Below are positions 3,010 through 9,281 of a DNA stretch of 12,645 nucleotides, piece by piece; position 1 is the first letter of the stretch, and each line of letters starts with the position of its first letter. The position numbers and the translations under genes are program-made. Under the pieces are notes generated by a model. The model was not told the DNA's origin. It did no database searches and saw only the letters and a list, made by a program, of their open reading frames with translations. Source of the DNA: Candidatus Hodarchaeum mangrovi (GTDB taxonomy: Archaea; Asgardarchaeota; Heimdallarchaeia; Hodarchaeales; Hodarchaeaceae); the NCBI GenBank assembly GCA_016839515.1, contig JAEOUE010000205.1, positions 1 through 12,645 on the forward strand, in the 5' to 3' direction.

Positions 3010-4914
3010 ATGGTAAAAAAAGCTGAAAATGGCAATTTATTCCATATTAAATGGTTTTATAAACAAGGATTAACAATTATAGTTATTTTCATGTTTTTCA
3101 TCCAAATCCCAAATTTAACAATAGCTGAAATGGAACCTAATACAATGAATAATACAACATCCAAACTTTCACCAGGTCAAATTAAGAGGGTCGATTGGAT
3201 GCCAAATTTTCCCTCACCATATGAAATGAGAGATTGGAACAAAGTTACAAAGGATTATGATTCTTTCATATTTGATTTTGATAAGATAGGAGATTATTTG
3301 CCTTTTATTCATTGGTCCACCGAATTTCAAAATTTTCCCAGAAATACCTTTAATTTACCTTCTTATGTTGGGTCAGTTGTGGCAGATGAAGCCATTAATT
3401 GTTTAGCTGCTGTTTTAGGTGCAACATTAGTTGGAATTGACAAATCAAACCAAAATGGGGTAGATTGGGTACTTATGTGTGAGAATTGGTATAATATTGA
3501 TACTGCTCAACATCTCTATCTTAATAATCGGCGAACAATGACTGGAAAAACTTTTTGGTATGAACTTCTTCCTACTGTGTTATTTTATCAACTAGCTTAC
3601 TATTATCCAACCACTGGTGATTTTCAAAACGAGACGTATCAAATTGCAGAGCGATGGTATGAGGCCTGTGTTGCATTAGGAGGTTCAACTAATCCTTGGC
3701 AGAATCCCAATTTTAATTATACAGCATTTGATTTCCTGAGAATGAGTGGGGTAGATAATGGACAATGGCGAGAACCTGATGCAGCAGCTGCAGTAGGTTG
3801 GCTTGAATATATTAGCTGGTTAAAATGGGGAGATGAACGATTTCTAACAGCTGCAGATTGGTGTATTTCATTCTTAGATCAGCTCACGTTTAATCCACTT
3901 TATGAAATCCTACTTCCATATGGAGCTTATACTGCTGCTCGGATGAACGCAGAGCTGGGACGGAATTATGATGTAAACAAGATTATTAATTGGTGTTTCG
4001 ACCCTAGCTATGTAAGGCCTGGATGGGGAGTAATCACTGGGAGATGGGGACAATATGATTGCAATGGGCTTCATGGAAGTATGACCGATGGTGGGGGATA
4101 TGCATTCGCTATGGGGACTTTTCAAAACGTTGGTGCTCTCATTCCTTTAACTCGATATGATGATCGATATTCACGAGCAATTGGTAAGTATGTTCTGAAT
4201 GCAGCAAACGCTGCAAGATTATACTACGGAAATGGTTTACCTTATCTACACCAAGACTCTGAAGATTGGCTTAAAATATATGATCCTGATTCTTGTATTG
4301 CTTATGAGGGATTACGTAAAGATTGGAATGGAATTGCCCCTCTTGCAACGGGAGATGTAAATCAAGATCGCTATTTGAATCAACAGGGACCAACTAACCT
4401 TGGTTTATATGGTAGTTCGCATGTAGGAATTTTTGGAGGAATTATCTCCCCCACAAATATTGAGGGGATCCTCCAATTAGATTGTCTCAAAACTGATTAT
4501 TATCATGATGATGCTTATCCTACTTTCCTTTATTATAATCCATACAATAGTAATAAAACAGTTGAAATTAATGTGGGACAATATATTTGTGACTTATATG
4601 ATGCTACGACTAATAGTTTTCTAAAAAAAGGAGTTTCTGGCCTTAGCTCCTTTATTCTTCCATCTAATACTGCTGCTTTAATAGTTATAGTACCTTCTGA
4701 GGGAACTTTAAGTTATATAGATAATAAAACCCTAATTAATGGAGTTATTGTGGATTATACTCCAGAAATTTTTCAGTATTCAAAAAGTACTTCAGCCTTT
4801 TGGTTTACCCCTACACTTGCTCTAATTGTTCCATCACTCATTAGAAAACTATTCAAACAAACGAATATTAAAAAAAAACCCATTGAAAATTATAATAAGA
4901 TTGAGGGAGATTAA
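3010..4914 (+). CDS. Secreted, probably C-terminally anchored, uncharacterised protein with (alpha/alpha)6-toroid glycoside-hydrolase-like features
   Basis: 634 aa. N-terminal basic plus hydrophobic signal-like segment (KQGLTIIVIFMFFIQIPNLTIA). Trp/Tyr/Asp-rich core with helical-hairpin motifs (WGDERFLTAADW, YYYPTTGDF). Beta-rich C-terminal domain, then TSAFWFTPTLALIVPSLIRK and a basic tail. The CDS is certain; the function is inferred. Confidence 0.6.
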   Translation: MVKKAENGNLFHIKWFYKQGLTIIVIFMFFIQIPNLTIAEMEPNTMNNTTSKLSPGQIKRVDWMPNFPSPYEMRDWNKVTKDYDSFIFDFDKIGDYLPFIHWSTEFQNFPRNTFNLPSYVGSVVADEAINCLAAVLGATLVGIDKSNQNGVDWVLMCENWYNIDTAQHLYLNNRRTMTGKTFWYELLPTVLFYQLAYYYPTTGDFQNETYQIAERWYEACVALGGSTNPWQNPNFNYTAFDFLRMSGVDNGQWREPDAAAAVGWLEYISWLKWGDERFLTAADWCISFLDQLTFNPLYEILLPYGAYTAARMNAELGRNYDVNKIINWCFDPSYVRPGWGVITGRWGQYDCNGLHGSMTDGGGYAFAMGTFQNVGALIPLTRYDDRYSRAIGKYVLNAANAARLYYGNGLPYLHQDSEDWLKIYDPDSCIAYEGLRKDWNGIAPLATGDVNQDRYLNQQGPTNLGLYGSSHVGIFGGIISPTNIEGILQLDCLKTDYYHDDAYPTFLYYNPYNSNKTVEINVGQYICDLYDATTNSFLKKGVSGLSSFILPSNTAALIVIVPSEGTLSYIDNKTLINGVIVDYTPEIFQYSKSTSAFWFTPTLALIVPSLIRKLFKQTNIKKKPIENYNKIEGD

Positions 4915-4935
4915 GGAGAGAAATTCTCTTTTTTT
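4915..4935 (+). terminator. Short hairpin plus T7 tract terminator
   Basis: GGAGAG-AAATT-CTCTTT (6 bp including 2 G-U) running into 7 T's immediately after the TAA stop. Confidence 0.5.
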
Positions 4936-5184
4936 GCACCTTATGGAATTTCTAGAAAAAACGAGTTTTTTAATAAAAATCAGTTGTTGAAGGATCCATA
5001 GTTTTATATCGACTGAATTACAGATTGAAGTTAAGTAAGAGGAATATAGCTGCTTTCCAAACAGTTTGCGCAAGGTTACTTGTGTTACTTCCTAATAAAA
5101 TAATAATGCAAAGAAATTAAAAATAAAACCCAAAACCAGTTTTGACACCTTTATTGGTTATCAACTTTAAAAGATGGCTTTATA

Positions 5185-6006
5185 ATGACATCCTTATTTG
5201 ATTATATAATTTCATATTTTATTTATTTTCTACCTAGCTTAATCCTAGCTTTCCTCGCTGTTTTAATCGGTCTTGTTGTTTTTTATTTGGGAAAGAGAAA
5301 AAATATTCAACTAATGGATAATTCCATTAATCTACTTCAAAGGGATAAAGAAAACAACGGATGGAAGTTTAAACTAGCGGAGAAAACCACAAGTGGACGA
5401 ACATACCTTGTTGACTTGAAAAAAGACCTTTTATTAGACGATTTTCGAATTCACTTTACTTTAATACCGAGACATCTTATAATAAGCCGAATTGGATCAC
5501 TAATCAGAAAAAGGAGAGATTATTTGCTTATTGAAGCGGACCCGGCTGATAAAATAGTCTTTCGATATCAAATTGAAATAATGCCATATAGAGAAGAAAA
5601 GAGAAGAAAAGCATTATTTGATATGTTAGGAAAATTACAAAAAATAAGCATCGGAAATCCACAATTTGAAAAAAGTCTTGGTATATGGGTTAATGATCCC
5701 GAATTTTTTTCAGCAGTTTTTCAAGAGAAACCACAAATTCTACGTAATTTATTTTCTTATAGAGATATCATTGTCAGGTTCTCCTTATATCCATTAGAGC
5801 ATCCTTCGATTCGTTTGGTTGCTGAATTATCTGAAGGTATTGAATTTACAAAATTAATAGAAACTTTGTTTGATTTAACTGCTGGTATTGTAAACATTGG
5901 TTCTAAAGGTTTTTATGCAAAAAAGAAGGATCAGCTACGTATAATTCGAGATAAAAAACTTGAAGAAGAAAAACAACGGCATGGAGATCGAAAATTTAAA
6001 ATTTAA
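5185..6006 (+). CDS. Single-pass membrane protein resembling CCDC47/DUF1682 (PAT complex subunit)
   Basis: N-terminal TM followed by [10 protein letters not shown], then SGR, [26 protein letters not shown], and a basic/acidic helical C-terminal tail. These are colinear with CCDC47 motifs as I recall them. Confidence 0.62.
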   Translation: [273 protein letters not shown]

Positions 6007-6014
6007 AGATTTTT

Positions 6015-6557
6015 TCAATTTTTATTTTTTCCCAGATTTTTGCTTAAATTACCCTCTTTTACTTTCTCTTCTATTTTATTTCTAAGGTCAAAGACATTAA
6101 TTGATTTTGGAAAACGATAAATGGCCAAATCAACATATTCGCTTTCTAAATCTTCTTCAAATAATCTTATAATAAAACCTTTTGCACCATAATGGGAAAA
6201 AGAGACTGCTAAGGCAACAATCGAGAAATCAGTCCATTTATATTCGTGAATTCGTTTTCCGATGCTGATACTAAACTTATCTGGCAAAAGGATTATCTCT
6301 CTTTTTACATAACGAGTATGATAATAATAAGTAAATCCTACAGCTCCCAAAAGGAGAAAAGCTATAGTTACAATATTTATAGGAATAAGCGGAGATCCAG
6401 TCAATTGGGTTATTAATGATCCTGTAGCTAAGAAAAAAATCGATTCTAGAAGAAGAATAATTCCATAAACAAGTAAAATAGAAAATCCAATCCGAGTTGA
6501 AAGTTTAATAATCTCCTCTTGATTAACTAGAGAATCGTCCTTTGTAGATTGAATCAT
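6015..6557 (-). CDS. Hypothetical membrane protein: 2 TM helices plus a soluble PH-like beta domain
   Basis: 180 aa, two hydrophobic helices, then IILLPDKFSISIGKRIHEYKWTDFSIV, a pattern typical of bacterial-type PH domains. SD GGGTGA (6562-6567) overlaps the upstream stop codon. Confidence 0.7.
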   Translation of the reverse strand: MIQSTKDDSLVNQEEIIKLSTRIGFSILLVYGIILLLESIFFLATGSLITQLTGSPLIPINIVTIAFLLLGAVGFTYYYHTRYVKREIILLPDKFSISIGKRIHEYKWTDFSIVALAVSFSHYGAKGFIIRLFEEDLESEYVDLAIYRFPKSINVFDLRNKIEEKVKEGNLSKNLGKNKN

Positions 6558-6566
6558 TTATTCACC

Positions 6567-7148
6567 CTATTCTTTCTTCCAGAATTTTAATCTCAAACCT
6601 TTTTTATCCATTTCAGAGGGATTAAAGAGAGTAGCACCACGCCGAGCAATAAAACCCTCAGAGTGAATAAACTCCTTATTCTTTAAATTTGCATATACCA
6701 AACCGATTTCTCGTTGGTTAAAGCGTTTCAAATGACCCATTACATTATCAGGTAGATTTTCTTCACCAAAGAAAACTAGCCAGCTCCATTCAAATTCCAT
6801 TATCTCCATTAATGCCCTAAGATAACGTATCCAACTCACAATCGTTGACCATTTTGTTTTTGAGGCATTTTGAAGCTCTATTACAGAACATGCCACAACA
6901 TAGGTGGGAGAAGCTAAGAATGCGAAAGCTCTAGATAGAATGAAACCTTTTCCTCGTACACCCCCATAGATTAATGCATCAACTGGTTTTTTCGATTCAT
7001 CAATATTCTTGCCTTTTAATGCTTTAGAAATATCGAAATCTCTTAAGGAAAGATCAAAATTTGCTATCCATCGCCCACCCTTAAAGAATAAACATGTTTC
7101 TATAAACCGAAGATATTTCTCCTTATAAGAAAGATTGAGATGTGTCAC
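6567..7148 (-). CDS. Hypothetical protein, possible degenerate PD-(D/E)XK/restriction-endonuclease-like alpha/beta fold
   Basis: 193 aa, GTG start with SD-like AGGTTGA (7155-7161). PVDALIYG strand followed by alternating strands and helices (WSWLVFFGE, EIGLVYANL). The fold call is inference only. Confidence 0.65.
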   Translation of the reverse strand: MTHLNLSYKEKYLRFIETCLFFKGGRWIANFDLSLRDFDISKALKGKNIDESKKPVDALIYGGVRGKGFILSRAFAFLASPTYVVACSVIELQNASKTKWSTIVSWIRYLRALMEIMEFEWSWLVFFGEENLPDNVMGHLKRFNQREIGLVYANLKNKEFIHSEGFIARRGATLFNPSEMDKKGLRLKFWKKE

Positions 7149-7204
7149 AATATTTCAACCTTTACATTTCTCGCTCCTTTATAAATTATATGGCATAAAG
7201 AAAT

Positions 7205-7237
7205 AGGAAAAAAAAAAAGGGGGGAGGGGGAGAGAAA
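7205..7237 (-). terminator. Polypyrimidine/U11 terminator of the APC permease gene
   Basis: 33-nt pure-purine run on + (A11 at 7208-7218, then G6 A G5), read as a C/U tract on the - strand starting 3 nt after the stop. Confidence 0.6.
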
Positions 7238-7239
7238 TC

Positions 7240-9075
7240 TTATTCGGGTGGGATTGAAGCATAGATTGTTGTAAAGTCTACTCCGCGTCTTGAATTATAG
7301 GTTTTCATAACAAAGTAAATGATTGCTCCTATCAAAATCAGGAGAATATACCACCAGAACCACCAGTTGATAGTACCGATCGGATCTGCAAAATCAGGAA
7401 TGAGTCCTCCGCCAACGGCCAGATCAGGTACTAAAGGCGGTATAAAGCCTAATAATCCTGTTAAACCTTCTAATGGCATAAGAACCCCTGCACTTGCAGG
7501 TCCAAGAATAAGGAGGTCGAGATATATGTTCAAAATCAGTGCTATGATACCTATTACTACAACCCCTTCATACTTTCCAATCTTAGGACGCCATCCAGAC
7601 CGTTCATAGACATCTTTCAGCTTTCTAGGTAATATTATTGCTGAAACACAGGCTGTTGTAAAGAATACTGCATCTAATAGATCTGTGCCTCCGACTGATC
7701 CACCTGGATTGAAGATGTCTCTTAGAATTGGGATATCTTCGCCACCAAGTAATGCTCCTAACCCATTAGTACCATTGAAGAAATCAGCTTCACCTAATGC
7801 TCCGAGAACCGCGACAATACATGTAAAGAGAATAGCGTTCGTAGGTGAGTGCCATCGTTCATGAACTTTAGCGAATCTTTCTGGTAGGGCTCGGTCAAAG
7901 CTCATGGCGAATATGATACGGGATGAAGTTGTTACAAATGGAGGTAAGTCGTTAGCAAGCCATAAAATAGCAGCGGTTGCAAACGCGATATTTAAGATAT
8001 CACCCATTCCAAACATATTGAAACCACTTGAGGACATCATTGCGACAAATGGCATCCAAGCACGATTTGGGAAAGTAGTAGCTGCAGCACCATCACCATA
8101 CCCTAAGTAACCTAGCGACTGGAAGAATGACCATCCCTCTGAGTTTGCAACTGTACCTGTACCAACTGAGGCAGCCATAGCCATGAAAGTACTGACAGTA
8201 ACATAAACTCCAAGAATGATAAACCCAGCTGCTAGATGTGAGATAGGTAATGACCTGTTTGCTTCTTTCACTTCACCTGCTGCGAAGGAAATTGCAGCAT
8301 AACCAATCCATGCCCAATATGCAGCCATAACAGCTGAATTAACAGCTTCAACGTAGTCTGTTACCTCAGCAGTATTAATTCCCTGAGCTACTGCTTCATT
8401 AATCCACTCTGTTGGAGAATGACCTGTGAATGACGTAATACCCTCAGCCATGGTAGTGGGATTTAAGGCACCTAAAATTAAGAAAAGATAGATCATCAAA
8501 GTAATTACTGCAGGAATCCAGAACATTATATGGAGTACTTTTCCAGTCATAGAAGCTCCGAAGAATGCCAAAGCCCCAAAAGCGAATATAAAGATAGTTC
8601 CGAGTACGAAAAGTGGTATAGGATCGAAGAGCCATTCAGTTATCGGTTCTAGAGCAGGAACAGCTACTGGTAAGAATAACCCAAAGAACTCAACAACTGC
8701 TACGGCAATAAGCCCATAAGAAAGTGCAATCCCCATGAATTCAGCCCATGCTGCAGTAAAACCAATCCCTGGACTTATAGTTCTTGAAATATATACATAT
8801 CCGCCACCTGCTCGGGGCATTGCTGTTGCCATTACAGCAAATACAAATACAGTCGCTATTGCGGCTGCTCCAGTCATAGTAAAAGCAACGACAAGAGGTT
8901 CAACGGGAAGTAAGTAATTCGATGGTTTAATTGGAGATCCTCCAGCTGCCTGAAAGACTCTTTTTTGCCAACCACCGCCAATAACGTTACTTAGGATGAA
9001 AATAGTTGCTGTAATTACTCCGATCTCACGAACAAGCCCAGTTGCATCGCGGACATATGTTTTTGATTCACTCAT
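7240..9075 (-). CDS. APC-superfamily amino acid/polyamine permease (archaeal type)
   Basis: About 12 TM. Motifs RDATGLVREIG, AMPRAGGGYVYISR, AGEVKEANRS, SRIIFAMSFDRALP and C-terminal IYASIPPE. Start reassigned to ATG 9075 (611 aa) because the ORF-track GTG at 9084 lies inside the SD AGGTGA (9081-9086). Confidence 0.92.
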   Translation of the reverse strand: MSESKTYVRDATGLVREIGVITATIFILSNVIGGGWQKRVFQAAGGSPIKPSNYLLPVEPLVVAFTMTGAAAIATVFVFAVMATAMPRAGGGYVYISRTISPGIGFTAAWAEFMGIALSYGLIAVAVVEFFGLFLPVAVPALEPITEWLFDPIPLFVLGTIFIFAFGALAFFGASMTGKVLHIMFWIPAVITLMIYLFLILGALNPTTMAEGITSFTGHSPTEWINEAVAQGINTAEVTDYVEAVNSAVMAAYWAWIGYAAISFAAGEVKEANRSLPISHLAAGFIILGVYVTVSTFMAMAASVGTGTVANSEGWSFFQSLGYLGYGDGAAATTFPNRAWMPFVAMMSSSGFNMFGMGDILNIAFATAAILWLANDLPPFVTTSSRIIFAMSFDRALPERFAKVHERWHSPTNAILFTCIVAVLGALGEADFFNGTNGLGALLGGEDIPILRDIFNPGGSVGGTDLLDAVFFTTACVSAIILPRKLKDVYERSGWRPKIGKYEGVVVIGIIALILNIYLDLLILGPASAGVLMPLEGLTGLLGFIPPLVPDLAVGGGLIPDFADPIGTINWWFWWYILLILIGAIIYFVMKTYNSRRGVDFTTIYASIPPE

Positions 9076-9281
9076 ATTTTTCACCTATATAATTAATTAT
9101 ATTAGGTTTTATTTTTGTTTTATGTGTCTTTTCTGAGCTTTAAATTGACTTATACACTGTTGCCTGAATTTGTAATATCTATAAATTGTCATGATGTTTA
9201 ATCTAGACATTTACAGTTTTTTTTAAGCTCTAAATCAAATGAGCTGTATTAAGACACAAACAAATCACGCACTATATCATA

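What the first reader, a model, noticed from the sequence alone, without database searches (positions are those of the whole stretch)
5185..6006. Archaeal homologue candidate of CCDC47, the ER PAT-complex/multipass-translocon subunit
Colinear by-eye matches to human CCDC47 (sequence recalled from memory): [12 protein letters not shown] vs TM-IIGKNKNSRL; TSGRT vs CSGRV; [29 protein letters not shown] vs [40 protein letters not shown] vs [24 protein letters not shown] vs LTHYADKIESVHF; and a K/R/E-rich C-terminal helix. Established: CCDC47 with Asterix (WDR83OS) forms the PAT intramembrane chaperone at the ribosome-Sec61 translocon. This protein lacks the eukaryotic lumenal acidic region and has a shorter tail. 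Inference: a minimal prokaryotic PAT precursor, i.e. a eukaryotic-signature protein. I cannot tell whether it is already reported.
Basis: partly seen in the sequence, partly recalled or inferred. Interest (0 to 1): 0.8.

Follow-up and report, generated by a model that had tools for sequence, protein, structure and literature searches.

The report
Divergent archaeal paralogue of translocon protein CCDC47
This gene of a Hodarchaeales (Asgard) archaeon encodes a small membrane-anchored protein that is a real but very distant relative of CCDC47, a ribosome-docking helper of the eukaryotic machinery for inserting multi-pass membrane proteins, but its partner Asterix is missing, its function is only inferred, and relatives are already tagged in public databases.

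Summary
The ORF at 5185-6006 (+) is real and encodes 273 aa. It has a short outside N-terminus, one TM helix, a conserved GKRKN, a cytosolic alpha/beta domain and a basic helical tail.

Its AlphaFold model (pLDDT 85.8) matches three ribosome-translocon entries that contain CCDC47 (Foldseek E 4.5e-10, 8.9e-8, 6e-6). The next hit is mycobacterial TtfA (4.8e-4). Everything else is at E 0.02 or worse.

The ORF itself does not hit Pfam PF07946. Profile-profile comparison ties its subfamily to Asgard relatives, and two scanned same-class relatives pass the PF07946 cut-off end to end (35.0 and 32.6 bits against 27.7).

The genome holds two paralogues. This one (S1, tailed) was found only in the window's genus. 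S2 (tail-less) lies on another contig. The wider family occurs in 92 of 400 Asgard genomes.

Asterix was not detected (0 of 83 class genomes over the cut-off), so a PAT complex is not shown.

The scan found archaeal CCDC47 homologues before on other DNA, and one such note was later marked "in print". I found no such paper. NCBI already names some relatives "DUF1682 domain-containing protein".

Verdict: homology is supported (about 0.9). The translocon-accessory function is inferred (about 0.45). This is a new member of a known kind.

The parts
5185..6006 (+). Whole gene (273 codons plus TAA): CCDC47-like protein, subfamily S1
   Evidence: ORF list. 30 close relatives at 43-100% identity with the same start. 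Orthologue present in 12 of 12 fetched sister loci.
5206..5283 (+). Single N-terminal transmembrane anchor (about residues 8-33), N-terminus outside
   Evidence: Kyte-Doolittle 19-residue windows above 1.6 start at residues 4-21, peak 2.82. The N-flank MTSLFDYI carries no positive charge. The AF2 helix runs 4-56.
5290..5304 (+). Juxtamembrane basic motif GKRKN (residues 36-40); puts the rest of the protein in the cytoplasm (positive-inside rule)
   Evidence: G36, K37 and N40 are nearly invariant in A1. A G-K/R-x-x-N type motif follows the TM in relatives of other Asgard families.
5365..5826 (+). Cytosolic alpha/beta domain (residues 61-214), the CCDC47-like core
   Evidence: AF2 strands and helices 61-214, block pLDDT mostly 80-95. 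Foldseek matches to 7tm3_4, 9i78_4 and 6w6l_7. Holds most invariant columns. hhalign to diverse Asgard relatives 99.6%.
5848..6003 (+). C-terminal helices and basic tail (residues 222-273; 14 K+R, 8 D+E). Conserved in S1, absent from S2.
   Evidence: AF2 helices 222-239, 242-250 and 257-266, with pLDDT falling to 52-70 and below 50 for 267-273. K246 and D256 invariant, K241 and R252 nearly invariant. Tail length after the PSIR motif: median 62 in S1 against 37 in S2 and 98 in the f4 group.

Best explanation
The gene encodes a single-pass, N-out/C-in membrane protein of a Hodarchaeales (Heimdallarchaeia, Asgard) archaeon. It is a true but very divergent homologue of eukaryotic CCDC47.

Shown:
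- The architecture: TM anchor, GKRKN, cytosolic alpha/beta domain, basic helical tail.
- The fold match.
- The chain of profile links to proteins that pass Pfam PF07946.
- Its status as one of two paralogues in this genome: S1, tailed, found only in the window's genus; and S2, tail-less, on contig C138.

Inferred from what CCDC47 does in eukaryotes:
- It sits on the cytoplasmic face of the cell membrane.
- It acts as a docking or scaffold factor beside the ribosome-SecYE-beta site while multi-pass membrane proteins are made.
- Its conserved basic tail is the likeliest ribosome- or RNA-contacting part.

It is not a PAT complex as defined, because no Asterix is detectable.

My odds: homology about 0.9. 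This function about 0.45.
For: Structure:
- The AF2 model has pLDDT 85.8 and pTM 0.78. It was made from archaeal sequences only, with no templates.
- Foldseek against the PDB gave 4 matches at E <= 0.001. The top three are 7tm3_4 (E 4.5e-10, TMq 0.56, 302 columns), 9i78_4 (8.9e-8, TMq 0.63) and 6w6l_7 (6e-6). The fifth-best hit is at 0.022.
- Passages of PMC9816642, PMC12572126 and PMC7505659 say these entries hold CCDC47.
- For contrast, an AF2 model of the neighbouring 193-aa protein with the same pTM (0.78) got a best E of 0.018.

Sequence (PF07946 was the top family in every set scanned):
- 4 of 30 S1 members, best 9.2e-4.
- 37 of 65 S2 and divergent members, best 8.8e-6.
- 11 of 20 members from other Asgard families, best 1.2e-8.
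- 18 of 23 f4 members at E <= 0.01, best 3.6e-9.
- L023 (35.0 bits) and L026 (32.6 bits) exceed the 27.7-bit cut-off over profile positions 8-314 of 326.

hhalign links:
- S1 vs S2: 99.9%, E 2.3e-34.
- S1 vs 20 diverse Asgard members: 99.6%, E 9.6e-24.
- S2 vs f4: 98.0%, E 1.8e-13.

Other:
- In the ESM Atlas the only named family shown among 30 hits is PF07946 (rank 22, score 0.86, a lead only).
- The tail is conserved within S1.
Against: - The ORF itself has no Pfam hit at E <= 1. PF07946 run over the whole genome does not touch it.
- Archaeal profiles and one Pfam-passing member do not reach any CCDC47 chain in the PDB by sequence (0 such hits at E <= 10).
- The direct S1 vs f4 hhalign is only 78.8%, E 1.6e-5, over 173 columns.
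- I could not get eukaryotic CCDC47 sequences, so no direct archaeal-eukaryotic profile comparison or rooted tree was made.
- Foldseek prints entry titles only. That chains 4, 4 and 7 are CCDC47 is inferred from the papers and the Pfam result.
- Part of the Pfam score of the long-tailed relatives may come from K/E-rich composition.
- Against the function: Asterix is absent. The tail is about 62 residues against about 98 in f4.
- The family is patchy: 22 of 317 sampled genomes outside the class, and 0 of 135 in the largest family. That fits an accessory factor, not a core translocon part.
- S1 is missing from 9 of 22 genomes of its own genus.
- The fourth structural hit, TtfA, is an accessory factor of one transporter.
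Confidence: 0.5

Rival explanations
1. Same ancestry and fold, different job. It is a dedicated accessory subunit of particular multi-pass transporters, as TtfA is for MmpL3. Here that could be the neighbouring APC-type permease block. It would not be a general ribosome- or translocon-associated factor.
For: - TtfA is the fourth-best structural match (E 4.8e-4).
- TtfA has the same plan: an N-terminal TM at residues 2-24, a cytoplasmic domain and a dispensable disordered C-terminus. It binds the transporter MmpL3 (passages of PMC6593404).
- The gene converges on a co-directional block (APC permease, 193-aa, 180-aa) with 8 nt between the stops.
- That arrangement is kept in 12 of 12 sister loci (the permease in 11 of 12, one contig ends). 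None of the window's upstream genes is found in those loci.
- An earlier scan note (e1-5526733, unchecked) places a Thorarchaeial relative in a CstA-transporter module.
Against: - The orientation is convergent, so there is no shared transcript.
- All 12 loci are from one genus, so the synteny may be only inheritance.
- The S2 paralogue and the f4 relatives sit in other contexts (earlier notes).
- The match to CCDC47 is about six orders of magnitude better than to TtfA (TMq 0.56-0.63 against 0.32).
- No Pfam signal links the family to a transporter family.
Confidence: 0.25
2. A complete archaeal proto-PAT. The protein pairs through its TM helix with an unrecognised small multi-TM chaperone that plays the part of Asterix but is too divergent for PF03669.
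For: - Asterix is about 100 aa and mostly membrane-embedded, the kind of protein that profile searches miss.
- In eukaryotes the two PAT subunits destabilise each other when one is depleted (passage of PMC9816642).
- The TM helix and the GKRKN motif are conserved.
Against: - PF03669: 0 of 83 class genomes over the cut-off. The 2 marginal matches contain stop codons. The own genome gives only noise, and controls ring at the same level.
- A screen of 34 loci holding CCDC47-like genes found 22 small ORFs with two or more hydrophobic segments. The only cluster spans 2 loci of one genus, and it has no Asterix signal.
- There is none in the window.
Confidence: 0.12
3. Not a CCDC47 homologue. It is a member of an unrelated, wider prokaryotic family (DUF3137 or TtfA-like) whose alpha/beta domain merely resembles that of CCDC47.
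For: - Weak PF11335 (DUF3137) hits in 6 of 65 and 2 of 20 relatives, best 2.2e-4 at 21.5 bits.
- The Atlas feature search ranks two Chloroflexota-dominated unnamed clusters second and third (0.91, 0.90).
- The archaeal profiles fail to reach CCDC47 chains by sequence.
Against: - PF07946 outnumbers DUF3137 in every set (37 vs 6, 11 vs 2, 4 vs 0) and passes its cut-off end to end in L023 and L026.
- DUF3137 gives nothing in the own genome at E <= 1.
- The exhaustive phmmer run over 1.84 billion representatives gave only 15 proteins at E <= 0.001. The 30 closest relatives are Asgard wherever a source names them.
- The structural match to CCDC47 covers the TM helix, the domain and the tail.
Confidence: 0.06

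Closest known systems
Eukaryotic CCDC47 (calumin; Pfam PF07946, formerly DUF1682; subunit of the PAT complex and of the multipass and SND3 translocons; entries 7TM3, 6W6L, 9I78)
   Same: - One TM helix followed by a cytosolic alpha/beta domain and C-terminal helices.
- Best structural match.
- Top Pfam family across relatives.
- Basic C-terminus.
   Different: - No signal peptide or lumenal acidic domain, only 7 residues outside.
- The tail is far shorter.
- No detectable Asterix partner.
- The ORF itself is below Pfam detection.
- It would sit in the cell membrane, not the ER.
- Ribosome or SecY contact is untested.
Heimdallarchaeaceae proteins of about 300 aa, some named 'DUF1682 domain-containing protein' by NCBI (group f4; P0118, P0124, L023, L026)
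   Same: - Same class of Asgard archaea.
- Same architecture.
- Homologous by profile: the A2 profile scores E 6.8e-22 and 4.3e-18, and hhalign S2-f4 is 98%.
   Different: - They pass or approach the PF07946 cut-off and carry a K/E/R-rich tail of about 98 residues.
- The window's protein has a 62-residue tail, about 20% identity in the hhalign alignment, and lies in another clade.
Subfamily S2, the second paralogue in the same genome (G000 contig C138, 270 aa)
   Same: - hhalign 99.9% over 234 columns at 25% identity.
- Same TM anchor, G-[KR]-RKN motif and domain.
- Same clade in the tree (94/89).
   Different: - S2 ends about 25 residues earlier and lacks the conserved basic tail.
- The two same-order genomes outside the genus also carry an S2-range match.
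- It sits after E2-like and JAMM-like genes.
- It hits PF07946 more often (37 of 65 against 4 of 30).
Mycobacterial TtfA (trehalose monomycolate transport factor A; PDB 6T84)
   Same: - N-terminal TM anchor, cytoplasmic domain of related fold and a poorly conserved C-terminus.
- Works with a multi-pass membrane protein.
   Different: - Much weaker structural match (E 4.8e-4, TMq 0.32).
- No sequence link found.
- Confined to mycolate producers, according to the paper, and tied to MmpL3.

Membership tests
CCDC47 / PF07946 (DUF1682) protein family | Scores over the curated Pfam cut-off (27.7 bits) for PF07946 | tested here: not met
   - The ORF has no Pfam family at E <= 1.
- A whole-genome PF07946 scan does not hit it.
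- 4 of 30 S1 members hit below the cut-off.
- This is an operational threshold, not a biological feature.
CCDC47 / PF07946 (DUF1682) protein family | Demonstrable homology to proteins that do pass PF07946 | tested here: met
   - L023 (35.0 bits) and L026 (32.6 bits) pass end to end.
- hhalign S1-S2 99.9%, S2-f4 98.0%, S1 vs diverse set 99.6%.
- Direct S1-f4 is only 78.8%.
CCDC47 / PF07946 (DUF1682) protein family | Fold of the cytosolic alpha/beta domain with its preceding TM helix | tested here: met
   Foldseek to 7tm3_4, 9i78_4 and 6w6l_7 at E 4.5e-10 to 6e-6, probability 1.00, TMq 0.50-0.63. Chain identity is inferred from paper passages.
CCDC47 / PF07946 (DUF1682) protein family | Single TM with the bulk of the protein on the cytosolic side | tested here: met
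   One hydrophobic segment at about residues 8-33. The N-flank has no positive charge and GKRKN follows directly.
CCDC47 / PF07946 (DUF1682) protein family | Long C-terminal coiled coil or helices that reach the ribosome | tested here: inconclusive
   - Helices 222-266 exist, are basic and are conserved in S1.
- They are short (62 residues after the last core motif, against 98 in f4) and modelled at pLDDT 52-70.
CCDC47 / PF07946 (DUF1682) protein family | Signal peptide and acidic lumenal (extracytoplasmic) domain | tested here: not met
   - Only 7 residues precede the TM.
- Open frames of all matches listed for the 92 carrier genomes are 316 aa or shorter, so no long N-terminal extension was seen.
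- A dedicated 'longer' protein search was not run.
PAT complex (CCDC47 + Asterix) | Presence of the obligate partner Asterix (PF03669) | tested here: not met
   - Own genome: best E 0.57, with controls ringing in 4 of 14 genomes.
- Class: 0 of 83 over the cut-off, 2 marginal matches with internal stops.
- No conserved small multi-TM neighbour.
PAT complex (CCDC47 + Asterix) | Physical association with the ribosome-Sec61/SecY translocon | not testable with these tools
   Needs biochemistry or cryo-EM/cryo-ET. No computation here bears on it.
TtfA family (mycobacterial TMM transport factor A) | Fold and architecture of TtfA, with sequence kinship to it | tested here: inconclusive
   - Architecture is alike.
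- The fold match is significant but weak (E 4.8e-4, TMq 0.32, 7% identity).
- No sequence match to a TtfA chain in six PDB sequence searches.
DUF3137 (PF11335) | Scores over the curated cut-off (26.1 bits) | tested here: not met
   - No hit for the ORF or anywhere in the own genome at E <= 1.
- 8 of 85 relatives hit weakly, best 21.5 bits.

The most novel reading that the evidence does not exclude
Hodarchaeales run a two-paralogue CCDC47 system. A tailed copy (this gene) docks on the ribosome and a tail-less copy does not. Together with a still unrecognised small membrane chaperone they form an archaeal forerunner of the PAT complex or multipass translocon at SecYE-beta. The division of labour at the eukaryotic ER translocon would then have begun before eukaryotes, contrary to the printed statement that prokaryotes lack PAT components (PMC9630114, passage seen).
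Probability: 0.12. Interest if true: 0.8.

Novelty: new member of a known kind. Interest (0 to 1): 0.5.

Why it matters
CCDC47 is treated in the translocon literature as eukaryote-only. Smalinskaite et al. [quoted passage not shown] Eme et al. 2023 list OST and TRAP, not CCDC47, among translocon-linked Asgard proteins in their main text.

A family of archaeal homologues, concentrated in the class most often placed next to eukaryotes, means this scaffold predates the ER. It also gives a minimal version to study: no lumenal domain, a short tail and no Asterix.

What this window adds is that Hodarchaeales of one genus keep two diverged copies that differ in the very part that contacts the ribosome in eukaryotes.

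The weight is limited for four reasons:
- The function is inferred.
- The family was already met several times in this scan.
- NCBI already labels some relatives DUF1682.

Tried and rejected
- Single-sequence searches of the ORF (Pfam, NCBIfam, PDB phmmer): nothing useful. The best PDB hit was an ATP synthase b TM helix at E 0.11.
- hmmsearch of four archaeal profiles (A1, A2, A3, A4) and phmmer of L023 against PDB chains: no CCDC47 chain at E <= 10. Hence I could not get the depositors' chain names from a tool.
- Attempt to obtain eukaryotic CCDC47 sequences with the last large protein search (A6 profile, E <= 1, lengths 145-539): 34 proteins. All those that a source names are archaeal (one is labelled only 'subsurface metagenome'), and none is labelled eukaryotic. 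So no direct archaeal-eukaryotic hhalign and no rooted tree.
- Complex prediction of the organism's SecY (A5, 503 aa) with the ORF (A1): 'no answer', score 0.01 against a mark of 0.32, controls not run. Not evidence either way.
- The look-up of sequencing runs for RNA: no RNA holder listed.
- Sigma-70 promoter and terminator scan of 4850-6100: 5 promoter-like sites against 5.6 expected and 0 terminators. Uninformative, and the wrong model for an archaeon.
- Link between two SecY genes and two CCDC47-like paralogues: dropped. The second SecY of this genome lies on a 2.1-kb contig and resembles none of 20 sister SecY genes. In sister genomes, having two SecY types does not track S1 presence. By my own tally, 6 of 13 S1 carriers have two SecY genes scoring over 140 bits, against 2 of 9 genomes without S1. 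Kin are not independent.
- The 193-aa neighbour: AF2 plus Foldseek gave no match at E <= 0.001.
The searches were:
  - CCDC47+Asgard: 0 papers.
  - CCDC47+archaea: 15 papers.
  - CCDC47+prokaryot: 14 papers.
  - CCDC47+Heimdall, matched anywhere: 1 paper, an antibody listing.
  - DUF1682/PF07946/IPR012879/calumin: 34 papers, of which the 30 listed titles show none on archaea.
  - Term look-ups inside PMC12962969 and bioRxiv 10.64898/2026.10.28.762692.

Supplementary tables were closed and may hold it.
Full report
**1. What is there**

The window (about 30-43% G+C) carries an ORF at 5185-6006 on the + strand, with an ATG start, a TAA stop and 273 codons.

Thirty close relatives (43-100% identity, same length class, same start) were found among 5.8 billion clustered proteins. 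Wherever a source names them they are Asgard archaea, mostly Hodarchaeales or Heimdallarchaeota, with two labelled Thorarchaeota.

In their alignment (A1) 30 columns are invariant.

**2. Architecture**

There is one hydrophobic segment at about residues 8-33. The N-flank has no positive charge and GKRKN follows directly, which gives an N-out/C-in topology.

AlphaFold2 on A1, with no templates, gave mean pLDDT 85.8 and pTM 0.78:
- a helix at 4-56 (TM plus stalk);
- an alpha/beta domain at 61-214;
- helices at 222-239, 242-250 and 257-266, with falling confidence.

Residues 222-273 hold 14 K+R and 8 D+E.

**3. Is it related to CCDC47? Structure**

Foldseek against the PDB gave four matches at E <= 0.001:

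| Target | E-value | TMq | Columns |
|---|---|---|---|
| 7tm3_4 | 4.5e-10 | 0.56 | 302 |
| 9i78_4 | 8.9e-8 | 0.63 | 335 |
| 6w6l_7 | 6e-6 | 0.50 | 218 |
| TtfA (6t84) | 4.8e-4 | 0.32 | 212 |

The fifth-best hit is at 0.022.

The tool prints entry titles only. Passages I read say that 7TM3 holds the PAT complex of Asterix and CCDC47 (PMC9816642). They also say that 6W6L holds CCDC47 with a resolved cytosolic domain (PMC7505659), and that 9I78 holds ctCCDC47 with a well-resolved cytosolic domain (PMC12572126). That chains 4, 4 and 7 are CCDC47 is therefore an inference, consistent with the Pfam result below.

As an informal contrast, the neighbouring 193-aa protein, modelled to the same pTM (0.78), had a best Foldseek E of 0.018.

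**4. Is it related to CCDC47? Sequence**

Results against:
- The ORF alone hits nothing in Pfam or NCBIfam.
- PF07946 scanned over the whole genome does not touch it.
- Four archaeal profiles and one single member never reach a CCDC47 chain in the PDB at E <= 10.

Results for. PF07946 is the top Pfam family in every set of relatives I scanned:

| Set scanned | Members hitting PF07946 | Best E |
|---|---|---|
| S1 (A1) | 4 of 30 | 9.2e-4 |
| Second subfamily plus divergent proteins (A3) | 37 of 65 | 8.8e-6 |
| Members fetched from other Asgard families (A4) | 11 of 20 | 1.2e-8 |
| Roughly 300-aa same-class group f4 (A6), at E <= 0.01 | 18 of 23 | 3.6e-9 |

Two f4 proteins exceed the curated cut-off over profile positions 8-314 of 326: L023 at 35.0 bits and L026 at 32.6 bits, against 27.7. 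A third protein over the cut-off, L022 at 27.9 bits, matches only the TM region, and I disregard it.

Profile-profile comparison connects the groups:

| Comparison | Probability | E-value | Columns |
|---|---|---|---|
| S1 vs S2 set | 99.9% | 2.3e-34 | 234 |
| S1 vs 20 diverse members | 99.6% | 9.6e-24 | 240 |
| S2 set vs f4 | 98.0% | 1.8e-13 | 209 |
| S1 vs f4 (direct) | 78.8% | 1.6e-5 | 173 |

The ESM Atlas feature search shows PF07946 as the only named family among 30 hits (rank 22, score 0.86, a lead only). It ranks two unnamed Chloroflexota-dominated clusters second and third.

Weak DUF3137 hits occur in 8 of 85 relatives. There are none in the own genome.

Taken together I put homology with CCDC47 at about 0.9.

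**5. Family structure and spread**

The profile of A2 found 99 proteins in the clustered database. These fall into the window's subfamily (S1) and a roughly 260-aa subfamily (S2) at 24-30% identity to the ORF, from the same taxa.

The window's genome has one of each: S1 in the window and S2 on contig C138.

Across 400 Asgard genomes, 92 have a match:
- 70 of the 83 sampled genomes of the window's class (my sum of that call's per-family tallies), including 22 of 22 in the genus;
- 22 of 317 outside the class, including 0 of 135 in the largest family.

S1-strength matches (E <= 1e-99) occur only in the window's genus, in 13 of 22 genomes. One further genome has an intermediate match with an in-frame stop.

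I built a maximum-likelihood tree of 56 rows. The rows were 14 of the 30 A1 rows plus 2 S1-like representatives, 14 S2 rows, 6 orphans and all 20 A4 rows. The other S1 and S2 rows were left out as near-duplicates. There are no eukaryotes in it, so it is unrooted. In this tree:
- S1 and S2 are each monophyletic (100/99);
- they sit together in one clade (94/89);
- that clade is apart from the f3-f7 families that include the Pfam-passing proteins.

So this gene is a lineage-specific paralogue, not the ancestral-looking copy.

The paralogues differ in the tail. After the conserved PSIR-type strand, the median tail length is 62 residues in S1 (30 of 30 rows), 37 in S2 (58 of 59 rows) and 98 in f4 (14 of 23 rows carrying the exact motif). 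Within S1 the tail is conserved: K246 and D256 are invariant.

**6. Partner and context**

Asterix (PF03669) was not detected:
- The own genome gave a best E of 0.57, while the same search rings in 4 of 14 control genomes.
- In the class, 0 of 83 genomes are over the cut-off, and the 2 marginal matches have internal stops.
- A screen of 34 loci carrying CCDC47-like genes found 22 small ORFs with two or more hydrophobic segments. The only cluster covers 2 loci of one genus, and it has no Asterix signal.

The gene converges, with 8 nt between the stops, on a co-directional block made of an APC-type permease, a 193-aa protein and a 180-aa two-TM protein. The two small genes are kept in 12 of 12 sister loci and the permease in 11 of 12. 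A metallophosphoesterase and a nucleotidyltransferase-like gene beyond them are kept in 10 of 12, the misses being at contig ends. None of the window's upstream genes is found in those loci. Another upstream arrangement is shared by 6 of the 13 loci examined, the window included, and the window does not have it. All of this is within one genus, so it is weak evidence of linkage.

**7. How it most likely works**

Shown: the topology, the fold, the homology and the paralogy.

[quoted passage not shown] The conserved basic tail of S1 would be the ribosome-facing part. I give this about 0.45.

The main rival (0.25) is a TtfA-like role as an accessory of particular transporters. TtfA has the same plan and binds MmpL3 (passages of PMC6593404). 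The patchy distribution also argues against a core translocon part. A full proto-PAT with a hidden partner gets 0.12, and non-homology gets 0.06.

**8. What is known**

Smalinskaite et al. [quoted passage not shown] Eme et al. 2023 describe OST and TRAP homologues under translocon-linked ESPs, with no DUF1682 in the main text (passages). Lewis and Hegde 2024 report Heimdall TRAP homologues, and their only mention of CCDC47 is an antibody (passages).

My searches gave the following:
- CCDC47+Asgard: 0 papers.
- CCDC47+Heimdall: only that antibody line.
- CCDC47+archaea and CCDC47+prokaryot: I judged the listed papers by title and abstract and read passages of five. Those passages concern Oxa1-type insertases or general statements.
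- Two structure-based Asgard surveys lack the terms PAT complex, Sec61 and multipass in their main texts.

Supplementary tables were closed and may list the family.

Public annotation is ahead of the literature. NCBI names some f4 relatives 'DUF1682 domain-containing protein', and many carry a precomputed PF07946 hit.

This scan has met archaeal CCDC47 homologues at least eight times on other genomes. One such note was later marked 'it is in print' without naming the paper. I could not find that paper.

**9. Verdict**

The gene is a new, unannotated and divergent member (a tailed, single-genus paralogue) of a family whose archaeal branch is already tagged in databases. Interest 0.5.

Noticed in passing
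window 6015-9084 (- strand): A co-directional block converges on the CCDC47-like gene: an APC-type amino-acid permease (7240-9084), a 193-aa protein (6567-7148) and a 180-aa two-TM protein (6015-6557). The two small genes are kept in 12 of 12 sister loci and the permease in 11 of 12. Both small proteins lack Pfam or NCBIfam families. The 193-aa protein has no structural match at E <= 0.001. Its best hit is BamHI-like at E 0.018. The Atlas shows only unnamed clusters, plus a DUF8052 lead at 0.89.
   Followed up: partly
G000 contig C138, locus L003 154-3369: The second CCDC47-like paralogue (S2, 270 aa, L003 1408-2220) follows an E2-like gene and a JAMM/MPN-like gene on the same strand. Two Arf/Sar-like small GTPase genes follow on the opposite strand. 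The E2, JAMM and GTPase labels are my reading of the translations, not tool results. Earlier scan notes saw the same E2/JAMM arrangement in other genomes.
   Followed up: partly
G000 contig C312 (locus L050) versus contig C150 (locus L049): The genome bin holds two SecY genes. The C312 copy (482 aa, on a 2.1-kb contig) is 44% identical to the C150 copy and resembles none of 20 SecY genes from sister genomes (41-45% against 74-84%). It is probably a foreign contig in the bin. An ORF that looks like an Oxa1/DUF106-type insertase follows it. That reading is my own and untested.
   Followed up: partly
sister genomes G066 (one contig), G071, G074, G075, G076; loci L051-L069: These genomes carry two full-length SecY genes of the genus's own type, about 83% and about 77% identical to the window genome's SecY. 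Both lie on the same 4.9-Mb contig in G066, so this is a genuine SecY duplication within the genus. Some genomes also have a much weaker third SecY-like match at 59-71 bits.
   Followed up: partly
window 3010-4914 (+): A 634-aa protein lies just upstream, with a hydrophobic N-terminal segment, a large middle part and a C-terminal hydrophobic segment plus basic end. It has no Pfam or NCBIfam family and is not found in the 12 sister loci.
   Followed up: no
loci L024 3782-4180 and L030 410-820: In two genomes of another Asgard genus (family f24), an ORF of about 135 aa with three hydrophobic segments lies about 1.1 kb from the CCDC47-like gene in divergent orientation. It has no Asterix or other Pfam family over the cut-off.
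   Followed up: partly
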